Shown: positions 4,032-55,762 of the stretch, in pieces
How positions within the stretch are numbered: position 1 is the first letter of the stretch
Layout of the letters: each line of letters begins with the position of its first letter
Source: a virus
Lineage: Duplodnaviria > Caudoviricetes
Virus record (IMG/VR): IMGVR_UViG_3300035696_000034
Span: 1-64,000 of that record
DNA length: 64,000 bases
Strand: one strand, 5' to 3'
Notes under the pieces: model-generated
The model's database searches: none
Seen by the model: the letters and a program-made list of their open reading frames with translations, nothing else
What the model was told of the DNA's origin: nothing
Made by a program: the position numbers and the translations under genes

Positions 4032-4097
4032 CTGAGTTGTCACAGCGCTGCGCTGTTAACGCAGAGATCGCAGGTTAGAATCCTGTCTCGCCAGCCA
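4022..4097 (+). tRNA. trnN: tRNA-Asn(GTT), second copy
   Basis: TGGCGAG/CTCGCCA, CTGCG-CTGTTAA-CGCAG, G73, CCA. Confidence 0.88.
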
Positions 4098-4103
4098 TTT
4101 CAT

Positions 4104-4179
4104 TGGCTTGTAGCTTAATCAATCAGAGCGCCAGGCAATAGGCCTGGAGATGGGGGTGAAACACCTTTCAAGCCAGCCA
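4104..4179 (+). tRNA. Atypical tRNA-like gene (Asn-like body, loop CAATAGG, nominal anticodon ATA)
   Basis: Perfect acceptor TGGCTTG/CAAGCCA plus GCCA; non-canonical anticodon loop and T-loop TGAAACA. Confidence 0.55.
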
Positions 4180-4188
4180 TTTTTTACT

Positions 4189-4244: not shown

Positions 4245-4913
4245 ATGAAGCGACATCTGACCCTTTATTTGCACGAAAAAGACATTTATTCCGAAGAGAA
4301 CAAACGACTTGTTGTAGACCATCCTAGCGGATTTAAGGCCGTTTTGTTCAGCCCCGAATACGCCAAAATTTTTCACATCGAGAGCATAGTAGAAGTGCTG
4401 AAGATTGTAAGAGAATCTTTTACTGCTATTATATACCCAAGCGATCCTTCTGAAGACCCTGAAGCAATAGAGTATCTCCCTGATCTCAAAAAATTGCATG
4501 ATTTTTTCTCCATAGTAGATCCTAGGTTAATGGAGACTATTAGAGAGAAGGCAGCATGGTGGGATTTTTCCTACGGACACTATGACGAACAGAGAGACTA
4601 TTCAGAGAATACAAACAGACTACTTGACATATATAAAGGCCAGTCTTACTTCTTAGTGGAGGGACAGTTTAATCACATTTTTAATATTGAAGCTTTCAGA
4701 GAAAATCTGAAAAGTTTTAGGATAGAAAAAGTCGATTGCTGGGATTCTATGGGTATAATGTTTTTCCTGCAGGATCTCGAAGAAGGCACCTTTCTAAAAG
4801 CTTTCCAGAACCTCCTGGAGATCTCCAGGATAAACGAAGAAATAGCAGAGCAGAAAGATTATGCAGCACAAGAATACTGCCGACACAACGAACCTTGGAA
4901 ATTCATTAAATGA
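4245..4913 (+). CDS. Hypothetical protein
   Basis: 222-aa ORF, SD AGGAG. Confidence 0.7.
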   Translation: MKRHLTLYLHEKDIYSEENKRLVVDHPSGFKAVLFSPEYAKIFHIESIVEVLKIVRESFTAIIYPSDPSEDPEAIEYLPDLKKLHDFFSIVDPRLMETIREKAAWWDFSYGHYDEQRDYSENTNRLLDIYKGQSYFLVEGQFNHIFNIEAFRENLKSFRIEKVDCWDSMGIMFFLQDLEEGTFLKAFQNLLEISRINEEIAEQKDYAAQEYCRHNEPWKFIK

Positions 4914-5200
4914 TTTTTACTATAGGTCGTACAGAATCCTACGAAAAAAACTTCAAACTGCTCCCAAATCTGGAAAAATTGGGTAGGACTACAGATCCTG
5001 TCCTTTTAAAAGAGCTAGGCATAAAAGAGCCCTACTATGCCGGAGGATCGGTTTGGAAGACACAAAAAGAAGCTAAAAAGAACTGCCCCTCAGATTATTC
5101 GGTTTATGGGGTTGTGGCAGACTGGAAGAAAGACACTGTACCAACAGAAGACGGGGACTGGAACTATCTTTTAGTAACATCTAAATTGATTAAGATATAA
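4910..5200 (+). CDS. Conserved phage hypothetical protein
   Basis: ATGA overlap with previous gene; YxGGSVW...YGVxADW pattern. Confidence 0.65.
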   Translation: MIFTIGRTESYEKNFKLLPNLEKLGRTTDPVLLKELGIKEPYYAGGSVWKTQKEAKKNCPSDYSVYGVVADWKKDTVPTEDGDWNYLLVTSKLIKI

Positions 5201-5275
5201 CGGGGTGTGGCCAAATAGGTAAGGCCCTCGGCTTGGGACCGAGAAATTTTGTCAGTTCGAGTCTGACCGCCCCGA
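5201..5275 (+). tRNA. trnP: tRNA-Pro(TGG), second copy
   Basis: CGGGGTG/CGCCCCG, CTCGG-CTTGGGA-CCGAG. Confidence 0.9.
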
Positions 5276-45269: not shown

Positions 45270-45872
45270 ATGGATGCTTGGCTGACTGCAGATACTCACT
45301 TCGGATATACTGTTAAGGATACAGACGGAGGTATTGAAAGGCCTAAGGATTTCTCTGAAAAGCTTTTCAAAGGGCTTCAGAGATCTCTTACACCTTACAG
45401 CACGCTCATACATCTTGGAGATTTATGCTACAGGGATGACGAAATCTGGAATAAAAGATTAGCAGAACTTCCAGGTAAAAAGTGGCTTATTATCGGGAAC
45501 CACGATAAAAAGTCGATCACATGGTATCTTGATAATGGGTGGGATTTTGCAGGTCATACTATATCCCTGATAGCTTTTGGTAAAAATATATTGTTTTCGC
45601 ATATACCAATGATGACGGATAATCTTTGTGCCGGTCCAAAAGGCTATTCAGAGCATAGATTTGATATAAATATTCACGGGCATTTTCACGATTTTCCAGC
45701 AGAGAAAGTGAAAGAGAAAGAGCCCGAGATATATAAAATACTGAATAAAAAACATTTTCTTATCTCTATGGAAAAGCTCAATTATCAGCCTATAAAACTG
45801 AAAAGGATAGTCGAACTTTTCAACACTGGAAAGTACCATGGACTCGAAAATGCCCTTACTCCTAACCCGTGA
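45270..45872 (+). CDS. Calcineurin-like phosphoesterase
   Basis: TADTHFG, HLGDL, GNHD, FSHIP, NIHGHFH. Confidence 0.88.
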   Translation: MDAWLTADTHFGYTVKDTDGGIERPKDFSEKLFKGLQRSLTPYSTLIHLGDLCYRDDEIWNKRLAELPGKKWLIIGNHDKKSITWYLDNGWDFAGHTISLIAFGKNILFSHIPMMTDNLCAGPKGYSEHRFDINIHGHFHDFPAEKVKEKEPEIYKILNKKHFLISMEKLNYQPIKLKRIVELFNTGKYHGLENALTPNP

Positions 45873-46893
45873 TGACTTCCGAGAGAAAGTCTTCGAGAGA
45901 GACTCTCATAAGTGCGTATTGTGCGGGGTGGAGGCTGCAGATGCCCACCATATCTTAGATCGCTCTCTCTTCGATGATAGTGGTTACTATGTCGAAAATG
46001 GAGTTTCACTCTGTACTTTTCATCACCTTGAAGCAGAGAAAACCCACATAACTTGTGATGAGCTCAGGGAAGCTGCTAAAATTAAAACCAGGTGCATGCC
46101 TGAACACTTCTATCTTGATGAGAATTATGATCACTGGGGAAACATTGTGTTGCCCAACAAGATGAGACTTAAAGGTGAGCTGTTTGGTAATGAGAATGTT
46201 CAGAAGATACTTAAAGAAGCTGATGTTTTGGATTTATTCCAAAAATACATTAAGCAGTCCCGAACATTCCACCTTCCTTGGAGTGAGAACCTTCAGAATG
46301 ATGATCGTAAACATGAGAATGTAGAATTCCTTTTGAATAAGCCTGTTGTAACTACCTTGAAGATGGACGGTGAGGGATCCAGTTTGTGTTCTGACCACAT
46401 GCATGCTCGGTCTATTAACTCTGGACACCACCCATCTAGAAGCTGGTTAAAAGCCCTTCATGGTCAAATAGCACAGGACATACCAAAAGGATTTCGTGTG
46501 GTAGGAGAGAATGTTTATGCTAAGCACTCAATTTATTATCAACATCTCAAGACCTATTTTTATGTATTTTCTATATGGAATGAAAACAATATAGCTTTGA
46601 GTTGGGATGAAACTCATGAGTATGCCGAACTGCTAGGATTAACTATGGTACCTGAAATTTGTTTCGGGACCTATAAGACCATAGAGGAAATGAGAAGTGA
46701 TATAGAGACAAACCTTGAAAAATATTCGAAAATCTGCAAAGACGAAATAGAGGGTTATGTCGTTAGGTTAGCCGATAGGATACCCTATAAGGATTGGAGG
46801 ATATCTTCGGGAAAGTTCGTAAGAAAAAATCATGTACAAACTTCAGAAAATTGGATTACACAACCAGTAATTCCTAATAAGCTTGAGGAATAG
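45838..46893 (+). CDS. HNH domain fused to RNA ligase
   Basis: N: RDSHKCVLCG..DAHHI...LCTFHH; C: KMDG adenylation motif, GENVYAKHSI, EGYVVR, KFVRKNHV. Confidence 0.85.
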   Translation: MDSKMPLLLTRDDFREKVFERDSHKCVLCGVEAADAHHILDRSLFDDSGYYVENGVSLCTFHHLEAEKTHITCDELREAAKIKTRCMPEHFYLDENYDHWGNIVLPNKMRLKGELFGNENVQKILKEADVLDLFQKYIKQSRTFHLPWSENLQNDDRKHENVEFLLNKPVVTTLKMDGEGSSLCSDHMHARSINSGHHPSRSWLKALHGQIAQDIPKGFRVVGENVYAKHSIYYQHLKTYFYVFSIWNENNIALSWDETHEYAELLGLTMVPEICFGTYKTIEEMRSDIETNLEKYSKICKDEIEGYVVRLADRIPYKDWRISSGKFVRKNHVQTSENWITQPVIPNKLEE

Positions 46894-46896
46894 TCT

Positions 46897-47790
46897 ATGC
46901 GTACGATACATTTTTTCCGGGGATTGCCTGGCTGCGGGAAGAGCACTGAAGCTCTCAAGATGCTTGAGGAGCATCCAGACAGGTATCGCAGGGTAAATAA
47001 AGACTCCATAAGAACTATGCTTATTGGACCTAGAGTAGCTTTCTATGCTGAAGCTATGGTCGAAAGTATCCAAAATCACTGCATGGAGATAGCTTTGGCC
47101 AAGGGTTTTGATGTCATCTGTGACAACACCAATCTCAAAGAGAAGTATTATCTGGATGCGTGTGCTGTAGCTAAACGAGTAGGAGATGTCCAGATCATTG
47201 AGCGTTATTTTGATGTTCCTTTGGAAGAGTGTTTAAAGAGAAATGCAGGAAGACCTAACCCTGTCCCTGAAGATGTGATAAGAGGTATGTGGGAGAAAAA
47301 TATTAAGGGGAAGATTGTTTCCCAAAGGACGGAGTATTTTCCTCCTGTAATAAGAACATTTGAAAAAGATCCAAATCTACCGGATGCCATAATTTCGGAT
47401 GTTGACGGGACTGTGGCTCTCAATCAGGCTGGGAGAAGCTATTATGATTTTACTCGAGTCCTGGAAGACTTGGTAAATGTCCCTGTCGCCAATCTCATAA
47501 GAGACTACAAGAAAAAGGGAGTCACAATAATCATTGTATCGGGAAGAGATGATGTCTGTCAGGCAGACACTGAAACCTGGTTCAAGTGCAATGATATCCC
47601 TTTTGATGCGCTTTATATGAGAGTTACTGGTGATAAAAAGAAGGATAGTGCCCTCAAAGAAGAAATCTATAACAAGTATATTAAGGGGAAGTACAACGTC
47701 CTTTTTGTTTTGGACGATAGACAAAAAGTCGTAGATAAATGGCGTGAACTTGGCCTTACTTGTCTGCAGGTAAATAGCGGAAATTTCTAA
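46897..47790 (+). CDS. pseT: Polynucleotide 5'-kinase/3'-phosphatase (T4 PseT-like)
   Basis: GLPGCGKST, DNTN; HAD domain DVDGT, SGR, LDDRQKVVDKWRELG. Confidence 0.92.
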   Translation: MRTIHFFRGLPGCGKSTEALKMLEEHPDRYRRVNKDSIRTMLIGPRVAFYAEAMVESIQNHCMEIALAKGFDVICDNTNLKEKYYLDACAVAKRVGDVQIIERYFDVPLEECLKRNAGRPNPVPEDVIRGMWEKNIKGKIVSQRTEYFPPVIRTFEKDPNLPDAIISDVDGTVALNQAGRSYYDFTRVLEDLVNVPVANLIRDYKKKGVTIIIVSGRDDVCQADTETWFKCNDIPFDALYMRVTGDKKKDSALKEEIYNKYIKGKYNVLFVLDDRQKVVDKWRELGLTCLQVNSGNF

Positions 47791-48297
47791 ATGAAAGAAA
47801 TAGTCTCCGAAAAACATCTGAAGTCAATAGTTAAGAATTTGGCCAGCCAAATAAATCTTGATTATTTGCATGCCGACGGGTTTATTATAATAGGACTCTT
47901 AAAAGGCTCATTCATTTTTTTGGCAGATTTGATACGACAGATCGAACTCCCTGTTAAGGTGGATTTCATATCAGTCTCAAGCTATAAAGATAATACTCAA
48001 GGATCTGAAATAAAAGTAAATATGAATTTAAGTGTTTCAATCGCTGACAAAGATGTTTTGGTTGTTGAAGATATTGTTGACTCTGGAAAGACTCTTTCAA
48101 CAGTACTGAATTTGCTAGCACAAAAAAATCCAAAGTCTTTAAGGACGTGTGTCCTGTTAAACAAGAAACGACCTAGAGTTATCGATACGCACATAGACTA
48201 TTGTGGCATGGAAATTCCAGATGTTTATCCTTTTGGTTATGGTTTGGATGATGATGAGTTTTTAAGAGGACTCCCTTTCATTGCTTATAATAAATGA
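47791..48297 (+). CDS. hpt: Hypoxanthine phosphoribosyltransferase
   Basis: GLLKGSFIFLADLIR, VLVVEDIVDSGKTL, FGYGLD. Confidence 0.95.
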   Translation: MKEIVSEKHLKSIVKNLASQINLDYLHADGFIIIGLLKGSFIFLADLIRQIELPVKVDFISVSSYKDNTQGSEIKVNMNLSVSIADKDVLVVEDIVDSGKTLSTVLNLLAQKNPKSLRTCVLLNKKRPRVIDTHIDYCGMEIPDVYPFGYGLDDDEFLRGLPFIAYNK

Positions 48298-48306
48298 GAA
48301 CCAAAC

Positions 48307-49563
48307 ATGTATGATGTAGTTATTATAGGATCTGGACCTGCTGGACTCGGGGCTGCATTTCATCTCTCTGAGCATTCAACCAAATCAATTCTGCTTATAG
48401 ATAAATCAAAACTAAGCTCTGGTGGCCTTCGTAATGACTGCAAACAAAATTATAAATATCCGATAGGGTTTCCAACTGAACTTTGGAGTGAACAGCTTAG
48501 TACAAAACTATTAGAGGTCGTGGAAGAGCACCTAAAACCCGATATCATACCCTCCTCGGAGAAAATTAACATCTATAAACAAAGGGCACAGAAGCTTAAT
48601 ACGAATCTCATAGAGATAAGGCAAGCTCACGTTGGAACTGATAAATCAGCTACATTGATTAGTGACTTGATAAATCAATTACAGAAAAACGGTGTGGAGA
48701 TATGTCTAGATAAAGCTGTAGGTTCGTTCAGTGACGGAAAAGTTGTTTTAGATACCTCTTTTGAAGAAATAAAATGTAAAAACATAATCGTGGCTCCAGG
48801 AAGGGCAGGATCAGGCTGGCTTAGAGAGTGCATGAAGAGATTAGATATTAGCTTTGTCGACAATGTCGTTGATATAGGAGTTAGAGTTGAAGCGAAAGAG
48901 CAGTACTACCCAATAGTAAAAGATTACTATGATCCCAAGTTCATGTTTCCGGACGATGTCAGAACTTTCTGCACCAACTCAGGAAATGCTCACGTGGTAA
49001 AAGAAAAATATCCATCATATTTCTCCGTAAACGGTCACTCATTTTCGAACTCAATGAAATCAAACGGTCTAGTCAATTTTGCCCTATTAAAAACAATTAA
49101 ATTGACCGATCCGGTAGTCAGCGGTTATGATTTTGCAGAAATATTGGGAAAAGCTGCAATGAGTCTCAGCAACGGAAAACCTTTAATGCAAAGAGTTGGT
49201 GATTTTAGATTGGGAAAAAGATCAAAAAAAGAAACATTCAATAACGATCTTTACGATTTCCTACCTACTTTAAGAGATGCTACCCCGGGGGATATTGGTT
49301 TAGCAATACCAGCAAAGATTTTGAGGCATATTTGGAAATCGATGAAAACCCTGGATACCATTATTCCAGGGATATTATACCCCTCAACTATCATGTATTA
49401 TCCAGAAATAAAGACATATGCAAATAAACCCAAATTTATTGATGATTATTTCAGGGTTAAGAATAATATTTTTATGATTGGGGATGGTGCTGGGGTAAGT
49501 AGGGGCATAACCGCAGCCTGGGCCTCTGGAATAAGAGCTGCAAAAGGAATTTTGTTAGATTAG
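48307..49563 (+). CDS. FAD-dependent oxidoreductase (uncharacterised dehydrogenase family)
   Basis: IIGSGPAG dinucleotide fold, VAPGRAG, DIGVRVE, RTFCTN, YYPEIK, GDGAG. Confidence 0.85.
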   Translation: MYDVVIIGSGPAGLGAAFHLSEHSTKSILLIDKSKLSSGGLRNDCKQNYKYPIGFPTELWSEQLSTKLLEVVEEHLKPDIIPSSEKINIYKQRAQKLNTNLIEIRQAHVGTDKSATLISDLINQLQKNGVEICLDKAVGSFSDGKVVLDTSFEEIKCKNIIVAPGRAGSGWLRECMKRLDISFVDNVVDIGVRVEAKEQYYPIVKDYYDPKFMFPDDVRTFCTNSGNAHVVKEKYPSYFSVNGHSFSNSMKSNGLVNFALLKTIKLTDPVVSGYDFAEILGKAAMSLSNGKPLMQRVGDFRLGKRSKKETFNNDLYDFLPTLRDATPGDIGLAIPAKILRHIWKSMKTLDTIIPGILYPSTIMYYPEIKTYANKPKFIDDYFRVKNNIFMIGDGAGVSRGITAAWASGIRAAKGILLD

Positions 49564-49681
49564 TTTTAAAACAAGGAATATGTCCTTGAAAAGAAATCAT
49601 GGGTGGTTGTGAAAATTTGAAACAGCTATAAAAAGTTTCTAATAATCTAGTAATACATTTTAGATGTATAAAAGGAGCCTT

Positions 49682-49822
49682 ATGAACAGAACACAGATAT
49701 ATCTAACGGACAAAGAACAAAAAAATCTTAAAAAAGAAGCCGATGAAATAGGCATATCAAAAGCCGAGCTTGTAAGAAGAATCCTTGATAAGCACATAGA
49801 AGAAAAGAAAAAATGTATATAA
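49682..49822 (+). CDS. Ribbon-helix-helix (CopG-like) protein, 46 aa, not in ORF track
   Basis: MNRTQIYLTDKEQKNLKKEADEIGISKAELVRRILDKHI; SD AAGGAG; ATACAT/ATGTAT inverted repeat upstream. Confidence 0.85.
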   Translation: MNRTQIYLTDKEQKNLKKEADEIGISKAELVRRILDKHIEEKKKCI

Positions 49823-51042
49823 GTATACCAGCAACCATCCATGACGGAGACTTTGAAGTTCTCAAGCAACTTATGAGAGACTGGTCTTCTTGTAAAAGAT
49901 ATGCTTATCAACGGATACACAAAGATAAGCTGGCTGGCAATAATGTTAAAAAAGCCTGTAAACCTATTTATATGTCTAAACTTAACGCCAGATATATAGC
50001 AGATGCCGTTTTAGAGGCTCAAAAAATAAATCAAGATCATGCCATATTCGGTAGCAAAAAACTATGGAATAAACTTATTTCAAAACTAATAACCAAAAAA
50101 GAGTGGCAGGAAGTAAGAGACTCAGAATTATATTCGAGGGGAGAACGTTCTAAAAAAGGTAACGCAAATATACGTGTCTTCAATACTCCCGAAGGATATA
50201 AGCTTAGAATAGGACTTTCAAAAGCCTATGCATTTACAACATTTACTCTCTATATACCTGAAGGACACAAGAAAAATCAAAAAAATTATAAGAGTATGTT
50301 CGACTTGTATTCGGACTGCTATGATATAAGAATCAAATATAAATCAGGTAAGTTTTATGCTCAGATAGGTTTAGATGTTCCAGAAGTAAAACCCATTTAT
50401 CTGTGTAAAAATGGAGTCGTTGGAGTAGACACTAACCCCGATGGTTTTGCTATCATTGAAACAAACTTTGATGGAAATCTTTTACACCACGAGTATTTAA
50501 AAAATGACAGGCTTCAATATGCTAGTCATAATAAGAGAAAAAGTGATATAGAGGCTTTAGCTATTCTGGTAGTGAATAAAGCCATCCTATCGAATAAAGG
50601 TATAGCCTTGGAAGATTTAAAATTCAGTGAAGGAAAAAACAGGTACAAAAAATTTAATAGGATGAAACATAATTTTATATATCGTCAACTCTTATTAGCC
50701 GTTGAACGCAGGGCTATTAAAGACGGGGTTGAAGTCAGGAAAGTAAATCCTGCTTTTACTTCTATTGCAGGGATCCTCAAATACCAAGAGCAGTACTCGT
50801 TGAATCGTCATACTGCAGCAGCATTTATAATAGGCCGTCGCGGTTTAGGGATCGTGGAAAAGATAAGGGTTAGGCTGGAGCCGTTAAAGAACAAGAAGCT
50901 GAACCTTGCAGGAAGAGGTTTCAAGATTGCTTTGACGGTGAAGGCTTACTCCTATTTCAAGAAGCTCTATAATATCCTTGAAGTTAAAACGCCAGGGCTC
51001 ACAGCCCCGTGCCTTACTCCCTTGTCGGGGAATACGGCATAA
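49813..51042 (+). CDS. IS200/IS605 TnpB-related (Cas12f-like) protein
   Basis: VVGVDTNP (D), IALEDLKF (E), VNPAFTS...NRHTAAAFIIGRRG (third acidic residue is His; no Zn finger). Confidence 0.85.
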   Translation: MYISIPATIHDGDFEVLKQLMRDWSSCKRYAYQRIHKDKLAGNNVKKACKPIYMSKLNARYIADAVLEAQKINQDHAIFGSKKLWNKLISKLITKKEWQEVRDSELYSRGERSKKGNANIRVFNTPEGYKLRIGLSKAYAFTTFTLYIPEGHKKNQKNYKSMFDLYSDCYDIRIKYKSGKFYAQIGLDVPEVKPIYLCKNGVVGVDTNPDGFAIIETNFDGNLLHHEYLKNDRLQYASHNKRKSDIEALAILVVNKAILSNKGIALEDLKFSEGKNRYKKFNRMKHNFIYRQLLLAVERRAIKDGVEVRKVNPAFTSIAGILKYQEQYSLNRHTAAAFIIGRRGLGIVEKIRVRLEPLKNKKLNLAGRGFKIALTVKAYSYFKKLYNILEVKTPGLTAPCLTPLSGNTA

Positions 51043-51249
51043 GCTAATCCGTAGGGCAGTAATGCCTTAGAGTTAGTGGTAATCGGACTCTATTTCTAGT
51101 CGAGTCCGTATGAGGTCTAAGGATCTCAGATAGGAGTTGAAAGGACTCCTTTAAAAAATCTGCTTAAAATAAATTTTGACAGATTTTCTAAACTAGGGAA
51201 ACCTATGATGCAAAGGGTCGATGGTTTTAAAAAATAAAAAAGAAACATC

Positions 51250-51330
51250 GGGACCAGTAGAGGAGTCACAGCGGCATGGGCTTCAGGGATCAGAGCTGCG
51301 ATAGGGATTTTATTAGAAAAGGGGATTTAA
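51250..51330 (+). pseudogene. Orphaned 3' end of the FAD oxidoreductase gene
   Basis: GTSRGVTAAWASGIRAAIGILLEKGI*; its TAA overlaps the ATG of the next gene. Confidence 0.85.
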
Positions 51331-51593
51331 TGAAACGAAAAGGTTATTTGATCTTCACCACACACGACGGGGACGAGCTCGATGCTAGATTCGTTACAGA
51401 TGAGAAGCTCTTCAAAGCTTTCAACAACTGTAAAGATAATGACGAAGCCATCGACGTTTGGGACAAATGGATCGACAAAAACGAAGTTAATGAAAAAGAT
51501 GAATGGTATGTCATGACTCTTGGCAGGACTATAACCGAATGGAATTTCAACGATATTGAGGTTCTTGGAACATACTATTTTGAGGTCTATTAA
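51330..51593 (+). CDS. Acidic hypothetical protein
   Basis: TAATG coupling; start corrected from 51276. Confidence 0.6.
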   Translation: MKRKGYLIFTTHDGDELDARFVTDEKLFKAFNNCKDNDEAIDVWDKWIDKNEVNEKDEWYVMTLGRTITEWNFNDIEVLGTYYFEVY

Positions 51594-51605
51594 AAAGGAG
51601 TTTTT

Positions 51606-52208
51606 ATGCCCGAAGCAGTCTGTGCAGCAGCTGTTGCGACTCCAGTCTGTGACAAACCTATACATATACTGGCTAAGAAAAAGTTATTATTTTTAGGACC
51701 TAAATTCAAGTGCGTTTATTTTGACGAACTGCCCACCGGTTGTCTTCCTATCTATGATTATAATAATGAAAAATATCATTTTTGCAATAAATATCAAAGT
51801 GGAATAGACATTCCATACACACTCAAATATCTAAATAGCGAAAGCTTTGATTTTAATAAAAATGAAGAACTTTTATTACTTGTTGCAAAAAATGTTTTTG
51901 GATGCACCCCTCCAGAAGGTCAAAATAGAGTTTATTTACATTTAATGTACATTAACACTATTGAACAAGTACAAGAAATGTCTAAAGTAATTACAAATTT
52001 AGATAAAGATTTTTGTGCAGAAAGAGAGATGATTGTAGGTTATCGAGATGATGATTTTCCCCAGTTGGGTATTCTTATCAGGAAACCTTTGGTAATCACC
52101 CATCCTAACATATATAAAGAATCTTTTGCACAAGCACCATGGAATAAACAGCCCTGGTACAAAAAACTTATAAATCGTAAAAATAAACAAACAAAATCAG
52201 CCACATGA
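51606..52208 (+). CDS. Hypothetical protein
   Basis: SD AAGGAG; 200 aa. Confidence 0.65.
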   Translation: MPEAVCAAAVATPVCDKPIHILAKKKLLFLGPKFKCVYFDELPTGCLPIYDYNNEKYHFCNKYQSGIDIPYTLKYLNSESFDFNKNEELLLLVAKNVFGCTPPEGQNRVYLHLMYINTIEQVQEMSKVITNLDKDFCAEREMIVGYRDDDFPQLGILIRKPLVITHPNIYKESFAQAPWNKQPWYKKLINRKNKQTKSAT

Positions 52209-52546
52209 ACTTATCTTCTTTAGTTGGTGCAGCCCACAATCATTATGGAAAAGATTGTGATCGTGAGTTATATGGATCCGGAGGAGGAGAAATAGATGCT
52301 GGTGATATAGTTAAATTACCCAAAAATATTTACACCTATCCTTCTTCTATTCGAGGTAGGGTAGGTAGGATAACAAGTGTAAACACCTATTTCTCACAAT
52401 GTGGGGATTGTAGGATAAGACTGAATGATGGCCGCTTAATAAGGGCAGATACCGCAGATCTCGACCTTATAAAAAAAGCTAAAAAGATTCCTAAAAGCAG
52501 ACGGGTGTGGGATTATAAAAAGAAGAATCTCTCAAATCCTATATAA
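52205..52546 (+). CDS. Hypothetical protein (possible SH3/KOW-like fold)
   Basis: GDIVKL...GRVGRIT. Confidence 0.5.
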   Translation: MNLSSLVGAAHNHYGKDCDRELYGSGGGEIDAGDIVKLPKNIYTYPSSIRGRVGRITSVNTYFSQCGDCRIRLNDGRLIRADTADLDLIKKAKKIPKSRRVWDYKKKNLSNPI

Positions 52547-53167
52547 TTTTAGACCCCTCTTTGTCCTATCATATCTCAAGGTAATTATACCTCTTTTTTT
52601 AAGCTCTCCAAGCACGAAATTCTGATAGTGGGAGCACATCGTTATCGGCTGTACCTCCTGGTAGTGCCCCAGATGCAGATTTAGCTTGAAAAATAGCTCA
52701 TATTTCATGATTTGACCCAAAATATCATGCTTTCCTTCTCCTGTTTTGACCTCTAAAGGATACACAGTTATGTCATCCCTATAGACTACGTCTATAACTC
52801 CGTAGGGAGGGCAAGGATGCTCGATGTTATAGAGGTATAGGGTACCAGTAGGGTGTAGGATACCCTCGATTTGACTGAGTCCTAGATGGATCTCCTTAAC
52901 GAGCTGTTTTTGGTCGTTTTTCTGCTTCAAATCTGGAGGGGTATTCGCCTCATTATTTAGGGGGTCTCCCCAGGCCATTTCGGGTATTTTCCTGGTTTTT
53001 ATGGCTTCCCTGACCATTTTGAGGGTTTTGAGCTGGATAGGGGTTAGGGCATGCCTGTCTTGGCGCTCTCTGAACTCCTCTTTAAGGAACTCATAATACA
53101 TTTCGGAGTCTGGAAGGTTACCCTTGAGGAAGGCGTAATAGCAGTGGTAAAATAGGCTTGTAATCAA
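52532..53167 (-). CDS. PD-(D/E)XK endonuclease (NucS-like)
   Basis: YGVIDVV...PLEVKTG...ILGQIMKY. Confidence 0.75.
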   Translation of the reverse strand: MITSLFYHCYYAFLKGNLPDSEMYYEFLKEEFRERQDRHALTPIQLKTLKMVREAIKTRKIPEMAWGDPLNNEANTPPDLKQKNDQKQLVKEIHLGLSQIEGILHPTGTLYLYNIEHPCPPYGVIDVVYRDDITVYPLEVKTGEGKHDILGQIMKYELFFKLNLHLGHYQEVQPITMCSHYQNFVLGELKKRGIITLRYDRTKRGLKLYRI

Positions 53168-53995: not shown

Positions 53996-55762
53996 TTACC
54001 CAAAATAGGAAGACAAAACATTCCTGACAGAGGAATTTCTTATCTTAAAAAAATCTCCGCTTTTTCGGTCTTCTGCACTGGACTTTATCAAAGCCTCAAA
54101 AGCATTTTTATCTTTTAAGATAGACTCTATTAATTTTTTGGCTTCTTCTTTTCTTTTGCTTATATCCGGATCCCCCATACGGCCTTCCATCATCAGCTTT
54201 TTCAATCTGGCTATAACCGCTCCCAAAGCTTCTTTATCTATGCCGTACTGGTCCCTTATCTCGTCTCCAGACAGCGGAGGGACATATTCATATTTATCTC
54301 TTTTGATTAAAAGTCCGTTCTTCTTGTCTTCTTCCACTAGCTTCTTTATTTTAGCTTCCAGATTTTCTACTTTTTTTATTCCTGCTTGATCTTTAGCGTC
54401 GGCTTTCAAAATAGCTATCGCATCATCCAAGTCATCGTGGAGTTTCTCTATGTATATCCTCATCGTCCTTTGTTGAGTGCTGGGTTTTTGACCCTCGAAA
54501 TCCTTAAATCCCATATGGGAATGTACGATATTTTTTACGGAGTTGATAGTCTTGCTGTCAAAAGTAAGCTCTCTCATTATTTTTTCCGTTAATGCGGCAC
54601 TAGCTTTTTCATGACCTATAAATTGTACACGCTGTCTACCCTCTTTGTCCACCTTTTCCGTCTTGGTAGCGATTTTACCTACATCATGGAATAAAGCCGC
54701 AAGACGAGCCTTAAGCGTTGGCGGAGTCTTACTCATGACTTCCATGGTATGATCCCAGACAGATTCGCCTTTATGGAAGACTTTGTCGTGGTAGACGGTA
54801 AGAAGCTTATCAAACTCAGGCGAAAGGTATTTCAGGAACCCAAGCTCCTTCATAAGATTGAGGCCTTGAATAACCTTATTAGAATCGGGGAAGACCAGTA
54901 TCTGCTCGAGCTCATCTCTGATACGCTCTTTAGAGAGCCTGCTGGAGATGTTCTTGTGACCCTCAGGGCTGTTTACGAACTGTTTAATAGTTTCTTTGGT
55001 CTGAGGATCTATCTTGAAATCTGGTAGCTTCCCCTCGAACCGAATTAATCGCATTATTCTTAATGGATCTTCCTCATATATCTTCTGGATGCCTTCAGGA
55101 TGCTCGGGTGGCTTGAGCTTTTTATTTTGAATATCCTGTATGCCTCCAACAAAATCTTTGACCTCACCAGTAACGATATTCTGATAGAGTGCGTTTATCG
55201 TAAGATCTCTTCTCCTACTATCGTCCTCCAGAGAAGTATAATCGACACGAGAAGGGGCTCGTTTCATTTCATCATAAGGTCCTTCTTTTCGTGGAGGAGT
55301 GATCTCTATGACATAGCCAGTCACATCGACTCCGTCTGTTATATAAGCTTGTCTGTTGCTCTCGGCATGATCTTGATGGGGATTAAGAAGAACAACTCCC
55401 CATATACCAAAAGCTTCTTTAAGAGGATGAGGATTATTTGGGGTAGTAATACCTAGAGCTTGTGTGAGTTTTTTGGCGAAGACTTCTGCAGCTTTCATCC
55501 CTTGCTCGGGATCATCGATAACCAGATCGAGATCTTTCGGGTTTCTTCCCAAAAGACGGTCCCTAACAAACCCACCCGTACTATATACTTTGTCTTTGTA
55601 GCTTGGAAATTCGGAGACTATGGTATCCTTAACGAGCTTTTCAACGGCATTGGTTTGTCTGGTTAATTCCTCTTTGGACTTTATTTCGTCCGGGACTTTA
55701 AACGCAGCTCCAGCTTCTCTCTCGTTCAGGAATGAGGAGACTACTCTTAGTTTTGAAACCAT
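53996..55762 (-). CDS. cca: CCA-adding tRNA nucleotidyltransferase with HD domain
   Basis: GGFVRDRLLGRNPKDLDL, DSRRRDLTINAL, EDPLRIMRLIRF, ALFHDVGK. Confidence 0.95.
   Translation of the reverse strand: MVSKLRVVSSFLNEREAGAAFKVPDEIKSKEELTRQTNAVEKLVKDTIVSEFPSYKDKVYSTGGFVRDRLLGRNPKDLDLVIDDPEQGMKAAEVFAKKLTQALGITTPNNPHPLKEAFGIWGVVLLNPHQDHAESNRQAYITDGVDVTGYVIEITPPRKEGPYDEMKRAPSRVDYTSLEDDSRRRDLTINALYQNIVTGEVKDFVGGIQDIQNKKLKPPEHPEGIQKIYEEDPLRIMRLIRFEGKLPDFKIDPQTKETIKQFVNSPEGHKNISSRLSKERIRDELEQILVFPDSNKVIQGLNLMKELGFLKYLSPEFDKLLTVYHDKVFHKGESVWDHTMEVMSKTPPTLKARLAALFHDVGKIATKTEKVDKEGRQRVQFIGHEKASAALTEKIMRELTFDSKTINSVKNIVHSHMGFKDFEGQKPSTQQRTMRIYIEKLHDDLDDAIAILKADAKDQAGIKKVENLEAKIKKLVEEDKKNGLLIKRDKYEYVPPLSGDEIRDQYGIDKEALGAVIARLKKLMMEGRMGDPDISKRKEEAKKLIESILKDKNAFEALIKSSAEDRKSGDFFKIRNSSVRNVLSSYFG

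What the first reader, a model, noticed from the sequence alone, without database searches (positions are those of the whole stretch)
49492..51330. TnpB-like element that interrupts a gene but brings a synonymously recoded replacement 3' end: candidate RNA-guided homing drive
The oxidoreductase ends GVSRGITAAWASGIRAAKGILLD* at 49492-49563. After the RHH+TnpB-like cassette the same tail reappears as GTSRGVTAAWASGIRAAIGILLEKGI* (51250-51330), still coupled by TAATG to the next gene, so the right copy looks like the original. 19/23 residues are identical but 12 of those 19 codons differ synonymously, and codon 2 differs entirely (GTA versus ACC). Established: TnpB guides derive from DNA flanking the element's right end. 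Inference: the guide is the old gene tail and targets empty alleles in co-infecting phages, while the recoded copy keeps the gene functional and escapes self-cleavage. No transposase is present, so spread would be by homing. The RuvC-III Asp is His here, so a nuclease-dead, repressor-like role is an alternative.
Basis: partly seen in the sequence, partly recalled or inferred. Interest (0 to 1): 0.78.

Follow-up and report, generated by a model that had tools for sequence, protein, structure and literature searches.

The report
TnpB transposon splitting a spare gene copy
A small IS607-type transposon with an RNA-guided TnpB nuclease sits inside a decayed second copy of a phage oxidoreductase gene, just behind an intact copy, so the "recoded tail" is the end of the dead copy and not a spare part brought by the transposon.

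Summary
The duplicated tail is real: 19/23 residues match, 12 of them through synonymous codon changes, and third codon positions are saturated.

Comparison with about 90 related loci places the mobile element at about 49607-51197. It has an IS607-type left end, an RHH gene, a TnpB of the published clade RIIIr-4 (RuvC-III Asp replaced by His, no zinc finger, enriched in viruses) and a covarying omega-RNA scaffold of about 200 nt that ends in CTAAACTAGG.

The 52 nt between that end and the right tail are also oxidoreductase sequence, from codons 290-311. The element therefore inserted at a GG in codons 289-290 of an older gene copy. That copy later lost codons 312-395 and kept its last 26 codons, which carry the ribosome-binding site of the next gene.

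The intact gene on the left is full length, shows no sign of chimerism, and lies outside the element's ends.

The predicted guide (51198-51217) matches the old copy at codons 290-296, not 51250 onward. It has 4 mismatches to the intact copy.

Best reading: an ordinary IS insertion plus a gene replacement or duplication scar. A natural cleave-and-rescue homing arrangement is not excluded (about 12%). No empty alleles could be retrieved.

The parts
48307..49563 (+). Intact FAD-dependent oxidoreductase gene (418 aa), the 'new' copy. Its last 23 codons (49492-49563) are the left tail copy.
   Evidence: ORF. Pfam Pyr_redox_2, DAO and FAD-depend_C. 84% identical homologues. Identity to them is even on both sides of codon 290.
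49564..49606 (+). Left flank of the element: 37 nt of unassigned sequence with a small hairpin, then G-rich GGGTGG (49601-49606), a TAM-like flank ending in the GG crossover dinucleotide.
   Evidence: Not conserved in any related locus. Only the last GG(+) joins the old-gene reading frame when the element is removed in silico. G-rich flanks (GGAGG, GAGG, GGTGG) sit next to the left end in 14 other loci.
49607..49663 (+). Left end (LE) of the IS607-family element. It contains a promoter-like TTGAAA-18-AATAAT at 49617-49646.
   Evidence: LE motif alignment. The nhmmer LE model hits 49615-49663 at E 5.5e-5 and lies upstream of TnpA, RHH or cargo in relatives. Promoter scan.
49682..49822 (+). Ribbon-helix-helix (CopG/Arc-like) gene inside the element, in the place of TnpA. 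Its stop overlaps the tnpB start. An alternative start is at 49664.
   Evidence: Pfam RHH_1 at E 1.3e-4. PHROGs Arc-like repressor families. RHH-like ORFs in the same position in L068 and L044.
49813..51042 (+). TnpB of clade RIIIr-4 (409 aa): RuvC D206, E267, H333, no zinc finger.
   Evidence: 379+ homologues. 2752 cluster representatives. Conserved residues. AlphaFold model pLDDT 85. Cas12f Z 16.8, ISDra2 TnpB Z 13.3, IS607 ISFba1 TnpB Z 11.5. Clade description in PMC10691335.
50990..51197 (+). Omega-RNA-like scaffold that overlaps the 3' end of tnpB and ends at the right end (RE), ...GACAGATTTTCTAAACTAGG.
   Evidence: Conserved in more than 55 loci, with homology stopping at 51197. 31 of 48 consensus pairs show compensatory changes. 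Folding z-score -5.5. No Rfam family.
51198..51217 (+). Predicted guide segment, GAAACCTATGATGCAAAGGG, equal to old-gene codons 290-296.
   Evidence: It is the first 20 nt after the conserved RE. It is unique in the window. It has 4 mismatches (positions 1, 8, 10, 19) to the intact gene at 49176-49195. That TnpB guides start right after the RE is established knowledge (PMC13565253, PMC8612924). The guide length here is inferred.
51196..51249 (+). Old oxidoreductase remnant 1: codons 290-311, with 7-nt and 4-nt deletions and a stop codon.
   Evidence: Family HMM positions 293-308 match GKPMMQRVDGFKK*KR, and the match improves with the reconstructed empty site. The nucleotide alignment to 49174-49237 scores 55, against shuffles of 21.9 +/- 4.1 with 0/500 reaching it. 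Blocks match 27/34 and 13/14.
51250..51330 (+). Old oxidoreductase remnant 2: codons 396 to the stop (the right tail copy). It holds the Shine-Dalgarno-like AAGGGGA and the TAATG overlap of the next gene.
51330..51593 (+). Next gene (87 aa, no family), coupled to the old tail.
   Evidence: No Pfam or PHROGs hit.

Best explanation
A non-autonomous IS607-family insertion sequence occupies 49607-51197. It consists of a left end, an RHH gene in place of the serine-recombinase TnpA, a clade RIIIr-4 TnpB and an omega-RNA scaffold. It inserted at a GG dinucleotide in codons 289-290 of an older copy of the phage's FAD-oxidoreductase gene. That copy is now a pseudogene remnant to the right of the element: codons 290-311 with small deletions and a stop, a deletion of about 84 codons, then the last 26 codons. 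The last codons survive because they carry the ribosome-binding site and stop/start overlap of the next gene. A full-length copy from the same phage clade, diverged to saturation at synonymous sites, lies immediately to the left and supplies the function. It most likely arrived, or was kept, through recombination with a related phage. That would be one homologous crossover plus one illegitimate joint within about 40 nt of the left end, or a tandem pair followed by a deletion adjacent to the left end. The 'recoded tail' is thus a scar of IS insertion plus gene replacement, not cargo of the element. Shown: the element boundaries, the identity of both remnants, the insertion point, and the family and fold of TnpB. 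Inferred: the order of events, the recombination route, that TnpB is active, and that its guide is 51198-51217.
For: Element boundaries. Homology among more than 55 loci stops at ...AAAC(C/T)AGG, which is 51197 in the window. The LE motif is at 49615-49663 and lies outside TnpA or RHH in relatives. Autonomous relatives carry a MerR-HTH + resolvase TnpA directly upstream. The GG terminus and G-rich left flank fit published IS607 rules (PMC13565253).

Old-gene remnants. The family HMM hits 51196-51243 and 51250 onward, colinear and on the same strand. The nucleotide alignment is beaten by 0 of 500 shuffles. Removing the element in silico restores ...GGKPMMQRV, which is the family consensus.

Intact gene. 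It is coherent: 83% identity to its nearest homologues over residues 1-289 and 87% over 290-418.

One-off event. No comparable flank duplication was found in 62 other loci.

Two long-separated functional genes. Third-position identity is 8/23 while the residues are conserved.

TnpB family. Fold; the D/E/H triad; clade RIIIr-4.
Against: No relative of this phage could be fetched, so no empty or old-type allele was seen and the order of events is inferred. The left boundary of the old copy coincides with the element's left end to within about 10 nt. This suggests the element took part in the rearrangement rather than being a bystander. The old tail shows no decay (22 of 23 residues match the family consensus) while codons 290-311 do, which is uneven for one neutral remnant.
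Confidence: 0.62

Rival explanations
1. Natural cleave-and-rescue (home-and-rescue-like) drive. The TnpA-less element spreads between co-infecting phages by TnpB cleavage of old-type oxidoreductase alleles (G-rich TAM + GAAACCTATGATGCAAAGGG). Almost no old-gene homology is left on its left side, so repair would co-convert the element together with the adjacent intact, guide-mismatched gene copy. The recipient would then keep enzyme function.
For: The guide region equals old-gene codons 290-296. The intact copy differs at guide positions 1, 8, 10 and 19 and in the 5' flank. The D/E/H triad is conserved, so cleavage is plausible (PMC10691335). The old copy ends exactly at the left end. Homologues with GGKPMMQRV exist in the phage clade (P0123, P0124). 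TnpB homing and homing into co-infecting phages are established or proposed concepts (PMC10055086, PMC13565253).
Against: This is a single locus. None of 62 other family loci has this layout. The family normally sits harmlessly between genes: 29 of 53 loci have a long ORF starting 0-14 nt after the RE. Any diverged homologue would show the same mismatches. The old remnant has decayed, so the arrangement is not freshly made. No DNA of relatives is available.
Confidence: 0.12
2. The element inserted at GDGAG|TSRG (codon 396), carries a recoded 23-codon replacement tail at its left end, and uses 51250 onward as its guide.
For: The tail duplication and its synonymous divergence are real.
Against: The RE is at 51197, 52 nt before the right tail. 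Those 52 nt are old-gene codons 290-311. The LE starts about 43 nt after the left tail's stop. The left gene is not chimeric.
Confidence: 0.02
3. Domesticated RHH-TnpB module. The pair acts as a toxin-antitoxin-like or regulatory or defence unit of the phage, as proposed for archaeal RHH/MazE-TnpB. The IS ends are relics, and the oxidoreductase remnants are incidental.
For: RHH replaces TnpA and overlaps the tnpB start. RHH-like ORFs recur in L068 and L044. The RHH/MazE association of His-type TnpBs is published. No TnpA is in the record.
Against: LE, RE and the omega-RNA scaffold are all intact and typical of the mobile relatives. The record is only about 29% of the genome, so a TnpA acting in trans is not excluded. 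No binding test was run.
Confidence: 0.1
4. Assembly chimera. Two co-occurring phage strains, one with an intact gene and one with an IS-split gene, were joined by the assembler.
For: The source is a metagenome contig. Read-level checks could not be run.
Against: The two copies are only 72% identical in nucleotides, so they offer no shared k-mers to mis-join. The joint at 49564-49606 has no repeat elsewhere in the window.
Confidence: 0.04

Closest known systems
TnpB major clade RIIIr-4, including RHH/MazE-TnpB (Altae-Tran et al. 2023, PNAS, PMC10691335)
   Same: The RuvC-III Asp is replaced by a conserved His. There is no C4 zinc finger. The clade is enriched in viruses, and some members sit downstream of a small RHH gene. 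A long 3' region is available for a guide RNA.
   Different: Here the RHH-TnpB pair sits inside intact IS607-type ends in a large phage, not in a non-mobile archaeal locus. The toxin-antitoxin role proposed there is untested here.
IS607-family insertion sequences and TnpB-driven transposon homing (PMC8612924, PMC10055086, PMC10690162, review PMC13565253)
   Same: Relatives carry a serine-recombinase TnpA. The element ends in GG and inserted at a GG next to a G-rich flank. There is no target duplication. The omega-RNA scaffold lies at the right end, with the guide read from the flank.
   Different: TnpA is absent and replaced by RHH. LE and RE share an imperfect inverted repeat. The scaffold is not RAGATH-18 or any other Rfam family. 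The insertion lies in a coding sequence, whereas the family mostly sits just before start codons.
Synthetic home-and-rescue and cleave-and-rescue gene drives (from my own knowledge: Oberhofer et al. 2019; Champer et al. 2020; Kandul et al. 2021)
   Same: An RNA-guided nuclease is placed in or next to a disrupted target gene, with a cleavage-resistant functional copy beside it.
   Different: Those are engineered and the rescue lies inside the drive cassette. Here the intact copy lies outside the element's ends, and no drive behaviour is shown.
Integrating elements that supply a substitute gene 3' end, such as e14 and phage 21 in E. coli icd (from my own knowledge)
   Same: A duplicated, mostly synonymously diverged 3' end of the target gene flanks a mobile element.
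   Different: There the substitute end lies within the element's attachment region and abuts the crossover. Here neither copy abuts the element's ends in that way, and a whole gene is duplicated, not just the tail.
Intronless homing and co-conversion by free-standing phage homing endonucleases (SegF, SegB, Mob; reviewed in PMC13565253)
   Same: The setting is co-infecting phages, with transfer of flanking genes along with the nuclease gene and modules without sharp borders.
   Different: Those nucleases are protein-guided. Here the specificity would come from an RNA guide.

Membership tests
TnpB / Cas12 superfamily | WED/REC + RuvC architecture | tested here: met
   The AlphaFold model (pLDDT 85) aligns over residues 1-391 to Cas12f (Z 16.8, 301 aligned, rmsd 15.1 because of domain placement), to ISDra2 TnpB (Z 13.3) and to ISFba1 TnpB (Z 11.5). 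The RuvC domain, residues 200-349, aligns to T. thermophilus RuvC at rmsd 2.8.
TnpB / Cas12 superfamily | Match to the curated sequence models of canonical TnpB (Pfam OrfB_IS605, Cas12f1-like_TNB) | tested here: not met
   Only PF07282 at E 0.062, below its cut-off. A profile search against PDB sequences gives no TnpB or Cas12 hit. Precomputed PF27229 is listed for the family, but that model is not in the local library.
TnpB clade RIIIr-4 | RuvC-I Asp and RuvC-II Glu kept, RuvC-III Asp replaced by a conserved His | tested here: met
   D206 in 102/103 and E267 in 100/103 representatives. Position 333 is H in 92, D in 9 and Q in 2. The definition is in PMC10691335.
TnpB clade RIIIr-4 | No C4 zinc finger between RuvC-II and RuvC-III | tested here: met
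   The stretch from FTS to NRH is 13 residues with no Cys pairs in any of the 34 aligned members.
TnpB (OMEGA) system | Conserved structured RNA that overlaps the 3' end of tnpB and stops at the element's right end | tested here: met
   In a 43-sequence alignment, 31 of 48 pairs show compensatory changes and homology ends at AGG.
TnpB (OMEGA) system | RNA-guided, TAM-dependent DNA cleavage | not testable with these tools
   This needs RNP purification and a cleavage assay.
IS607 family | Serine-recombinase TnpA (MerR HTH + resolvase) encoded upstream of tnpB | tested here: not met
   TnpA is present in relatives (L020, L009: Resolvase at E 6e-20 and 1e-20 plus MerR). It is absent from the window's element and from the 72-kb record, so this copy is a non-autonomous derivative.
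IS607 family | Element ends in GG and is inserted at or after a GG next to a G-rich flank, with no target-site duplication | tested here: met
   The RE is ...CTAGG and the left flank is ...GGGTGG. The reconstructed site reads GGT GG|G AAA with nothing duplicated. The rule is from PMC13565253.
Mobile element that carries a replacement 3' end of its target gene | The replacement segment lies inside the element's ends and abuts the insertion point | tested here: not met
   The left tail ends about 43 nt outside the LE. The right tail starts 52 nt beyond the RE. The intact gene is full length.
IStron (group I intron + IS with TnpB) | Group I intron ribozyme at the element's ends | tested here: inconclusive
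   No intron family was found in 48000-53000 at E <= 1. No U before, or G at, plausible splice points that would keep the frame (read).

The most novel reading that the evidence does not exclude
The locus works as a natural cleave-and-rescue homing unit. A TnpA-less RIIIr-4 TnpB element carries a guide that matches the old allele of a phage oxidoreductase gene. It is parked right behind an intact, guide-mismatched copy of that gene. Cutting old-type alleles in co-infecting relatives, followed by repair from this genome, would then spread the element and the rescue gene together.
Probability: 0.12. Interest if true: 0.8.

Novelty: new member of a known kind. Interest (0 to 1): 0.36.

Why it matters
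The result corrects an attractive but wrongly anchored reading. The "recoded tail" is the end of an IS-split pseudogene, and the guide lies elsewhere.

It also gives a fully mapped example of a virus-borne RIIIr-4 TnpB element: both ends, the promoter-like site, the RHH gene, the omega-RNA structure, the insertion point and a predicted guide with its TAM-side flank. The clade's activity has been inferred only from conservation, and this example makes it directly testable. One clear experiment follows from it: cleavage of the old-type target compared with the intact copy.

If the minority reading holds, it would be the first natural counterpart of engineered rescue drives.

Tried and rejected
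- **Phage database (blastn):** no match for the region.
- **Viral-contig scans:** scans with the oxidoreductase, its alignment, and the downstream and upstream genes found no related phage. No empty allele could therefore be examined.
- **Earlier tblastn alignment:** it extended the right copy back to residue 378 (IDDYF...). I rejected it in favour of the much stronger match of 51196-51249 to codons 290-311.
- **Mini-ORF as an oxidoreductase N-terminus:** I considered whether MMQRVDGFKK is the start of an oxidoreductase. It does not fit the M(xxx)YDVIIIGSGPAG pattern.
- **Larger segment moved by the serine recombinase at GGG microhomologies (49492-49494 and 51250-51252):** dropped once the 52 nt proved to be old-gene sequence.
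- **IStron or intron reading:** no ribozyme was found.
- **Other guide targets:** a search for the guide with up to 3 mismatches elsewhere in the window found none.
- **Same layout in other loci:** L071 holds two TnpA paralogues, L075 holds distant polymerase paralogues, and the L019 match is weak.
- **RHH-TnpB complex prediction:** not run, because the report does not claim that the two proteins bind.
Full report
**Observation.** Over 23 aligned codons, 19 residues are identical. Seven of those codons are identical and 12 differ synonymously. Codon 2 is GTA versus ACC. Nucleotide identity is 50/69 and third positions match in only 8/23. The right copy scores E 9.5e-6 in a HMMER search of the record. 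This stretch, GDGAGTSRGIT(A/G)AWASGIRAA, is almost invariant across 119 homologues. High residue identity with saturated synonymous sites is therefore what any two long-separated functional homologues would show. It is not in itself a sign of deliberate recoding. The intact copy has Val at codon 397, where all 119 homologues listed have Thr.

**The TnpB-like gene.**
- The 409-aa ORF has more than 379 close homologues and 2752 cluster representatives at E <= 1e-3.
- It is almost invisible to canonical TnpB models (Pfam E 0.062; no PDB sequence hit with a profile).
- Its AlphaFold model (pLDDT 85) aligns end to end with Cas12f (Z 16.8), ISDra2 TnpB (Z 13.3) and the IS607 TnpB of ISFba1 (Z 11.5). 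Its RuvC domain fits bacterial RuvC at 2.8 A.
- D206 and E267 are essentially invariant. Position 333 is His in 92, Asp in 9 and Gln in 2 of 103 representatives. There is no zinc finger.
- These are the published features of TnpB major clade RIIIr-4. That clade is described as enriched in viruses, probably catalytically active, and partly associated with RHH/MazE genes (PMC10691335).

**The element and its ends.** I fetched 90 related loci.
- Many loci have an IS607-type serine recombinase (MerR HTH + resolvase) whose end overlaps the tnpB start.
- Others lack it but keep a conserved left-end motif. That motif lies outside TnpA, RHH or cargo where those are present. In the window it is at 49615-49663, upstream of the RHH gene, so RHH is inside the element.
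- Downstream of tnpB, homology among more than 55 loci runs for about 150 nt and stops abruptly at ...CTAAAC(C/T)AGG, which is 51197 in the window. After that point every locus differs.
- This region, together with the last 50 nt of the ORF, forms a structured RNA. In it, 31 of 48 consensus pairs show compensatory changes. The window's copy folds with z = -5.5. Rfam 15 has no match.
- The GG terminus and the G-rich flank next to the left end (GGAGG, GAGG, GGTGG) fit the published IS607 rules: insertion at GG and TAMs such as AGGAG or GAGGG (PMC13565253).
- The element is therefore about 49607-51197. Both tail copies lie outside it.

**What the flanks are.**
- A profile of 119 oxidoreductase homologues hits the translated right flank twice, colinear and in one frame. 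GKPMMQRVDGFKK*KR (51196-51243) matches profile positions 293-308, and the tail matches positions 399-420.
- At the nucleotide level, 51196-51249 aligns to 49174-49237 of the intact gene (codons 290-311). The blocks match 27/34 and 13/14, and two deletions of 7 and 4 nt separate three aligned blocks. None of 500 shuffles reaches the score.
- Removing the element in silico gives ...ATG GGT GGG AAA CCT ATG ATG CAA AGG GTC, which reads GGKPMMQRV. This is the family consensus, and the profile score rises.
- The element therefore inserted at the GG of GGT GG|G AAA, codons 289-290, of an older oxidoreductase copy.
- To the right of the element, that copy keeps codons 290-311 (decayed), lacks about codons 312-395, and keeps codons 396 to the stop. 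Those last codons include the Shine-Dalgarno-like AAGGGGA and the TAATG overlap of the next gene.
- To the left, at most about 10 nt of the old copy remain. The other 30-odd nt after the intact gene's stop codon match nothing.

**The intact gene.** It is a complete 418-aa gene. Its identity to its nearest homologues is 83% over residues 1-289 and 87% over 290-418, following the conservation profile seen with all homologues. It does not look like an old 5' part fused to an imported tail. The old remnants (GGKPMMQRV, RGVT) resemble other members of the same phage clade, such as P0124.

**The guide.** If the guide begins right after the right end, as in other TnpBs, it is 51198-51217, which is old-gene codons 290-296. 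The equivalent site in the intact gene (49176-49195) differs at positions 1, 8, 10 and 19, and its 5' flank is ...AACGG instead of ...GGTGG. No other near-match exists in the window.

**How general it is.**
- Among 62 family loci with both flanks available, only the window has a protein-level duplication across the element. The other signals were two TnpA paralogues (L071), distant polymerase paralogues (L075), a 106-nt repeat (L028) and a weak hit (L019).
- The family usually sits between genes. In 29 of 53 loci a long ORF starts 0-14 nt after the right end.
- The old gene's internal GGGTGG-N7-ATGATG looks like such a ribosome-binding-site and start arrangement. This may be why it was hit (inference).

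**Interpretation.** The best reading (about 0.62) is an ordinary IS607-type insertion into one oxidoreductase copy. Function is supplied by a second, diverged copy that was acquired or retained through recombination with a related phage. The tail is a leftover kept for the expression signals of the next gene. The old copy ends exactly at the left end, which suggests the rearrangement involved the element. It could have been a deletion adjacent to the left end, or entry of 'element plus right flank' by one illegitimate and one homologous joint. I could not resolve this.

The guide targets old-type alleles, the adjacent intact copy is mismatched, and repair from this genome would carry both together. 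That would be a natural cleave-and-rescue layout. Against it stand the single occurrence, the decay of the remnant, and the fact that any diverged homologue would be mismatched.

**Limits.** The record is only about 29% of the genome, so a TnpA elsewhere in it cannot be excluded.

Noticed in passing
window 49495-49497: The intact oxidoreductase has Val (GTA) in GDGAG-V-SRG, where all 119 homologues listed have Thr. The dead copy keeps Thr.
   Followed up: partly
window 49617-49646: A promoter-like TTGAAA-18-AATAAT (10/12) lies inside the conserved left end. The conserved TTGAAAC of the left end may be the -35 box that drives RHH, tnpB and the omega-RNA.
   Followed up: no
L045:4669-4719 and L060:1245-1295: Two family elements that are only about 75% identical in nucleotides have identical right flanks over 40+ nt. 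Either diverged elements occupy one and the same site, or one element replaced the other.
   Followed up: partly
L002-L091, first 15 nt after each right end: In 29 of 53 loci a long ORF starts with ATG 0-14 nt (mostly 4-7) after ...AAACCAGG. The element's terminal AGG would then stand where the gene's Shine-Dalgarno sequence was, and the published IS607 TAMs (AGGAG, GAGGG) resemble Shine-Dalgarno sequences.
   Followed up: partly
L044:230-617 and L068:510-677: Small RHH-like ORFs lie between the left end and tnpB in at least two other loci, so the LE-RHH-TnpB layout recurs within the mobile form of the family.
   Followed up: partly
L045:113-170 and L050:802-860: The left-end motif lies about 3.1 kb upstream of tnpB. 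This is far more than a TnpA gene needs, so these copies may carry cargo genes.
   Followed up: no
L028:~929-1034 and ~4081-4186: A 106-nt direct repeat (88% identical) brackets the element at a distance. Its nature is unknown.
   Followed up: no
L071:3124-3675 and 4702-5253: Two diverged IS607-type TnpA genes (32% identity) flank a truncated tnpB. This is probably a nested or adjacent pair of elements.
   Followed up: no
window 45838-47790 and 53996-55762: The neighbourhood encodes an HNH-RNA-ligase-like protein, a PNK/phosphatase-like protein, an HPRT-like protein and a CCA-adding enzyme. The record is estimated at 29% of the genome, so this is a large phage.
   Followed up: no
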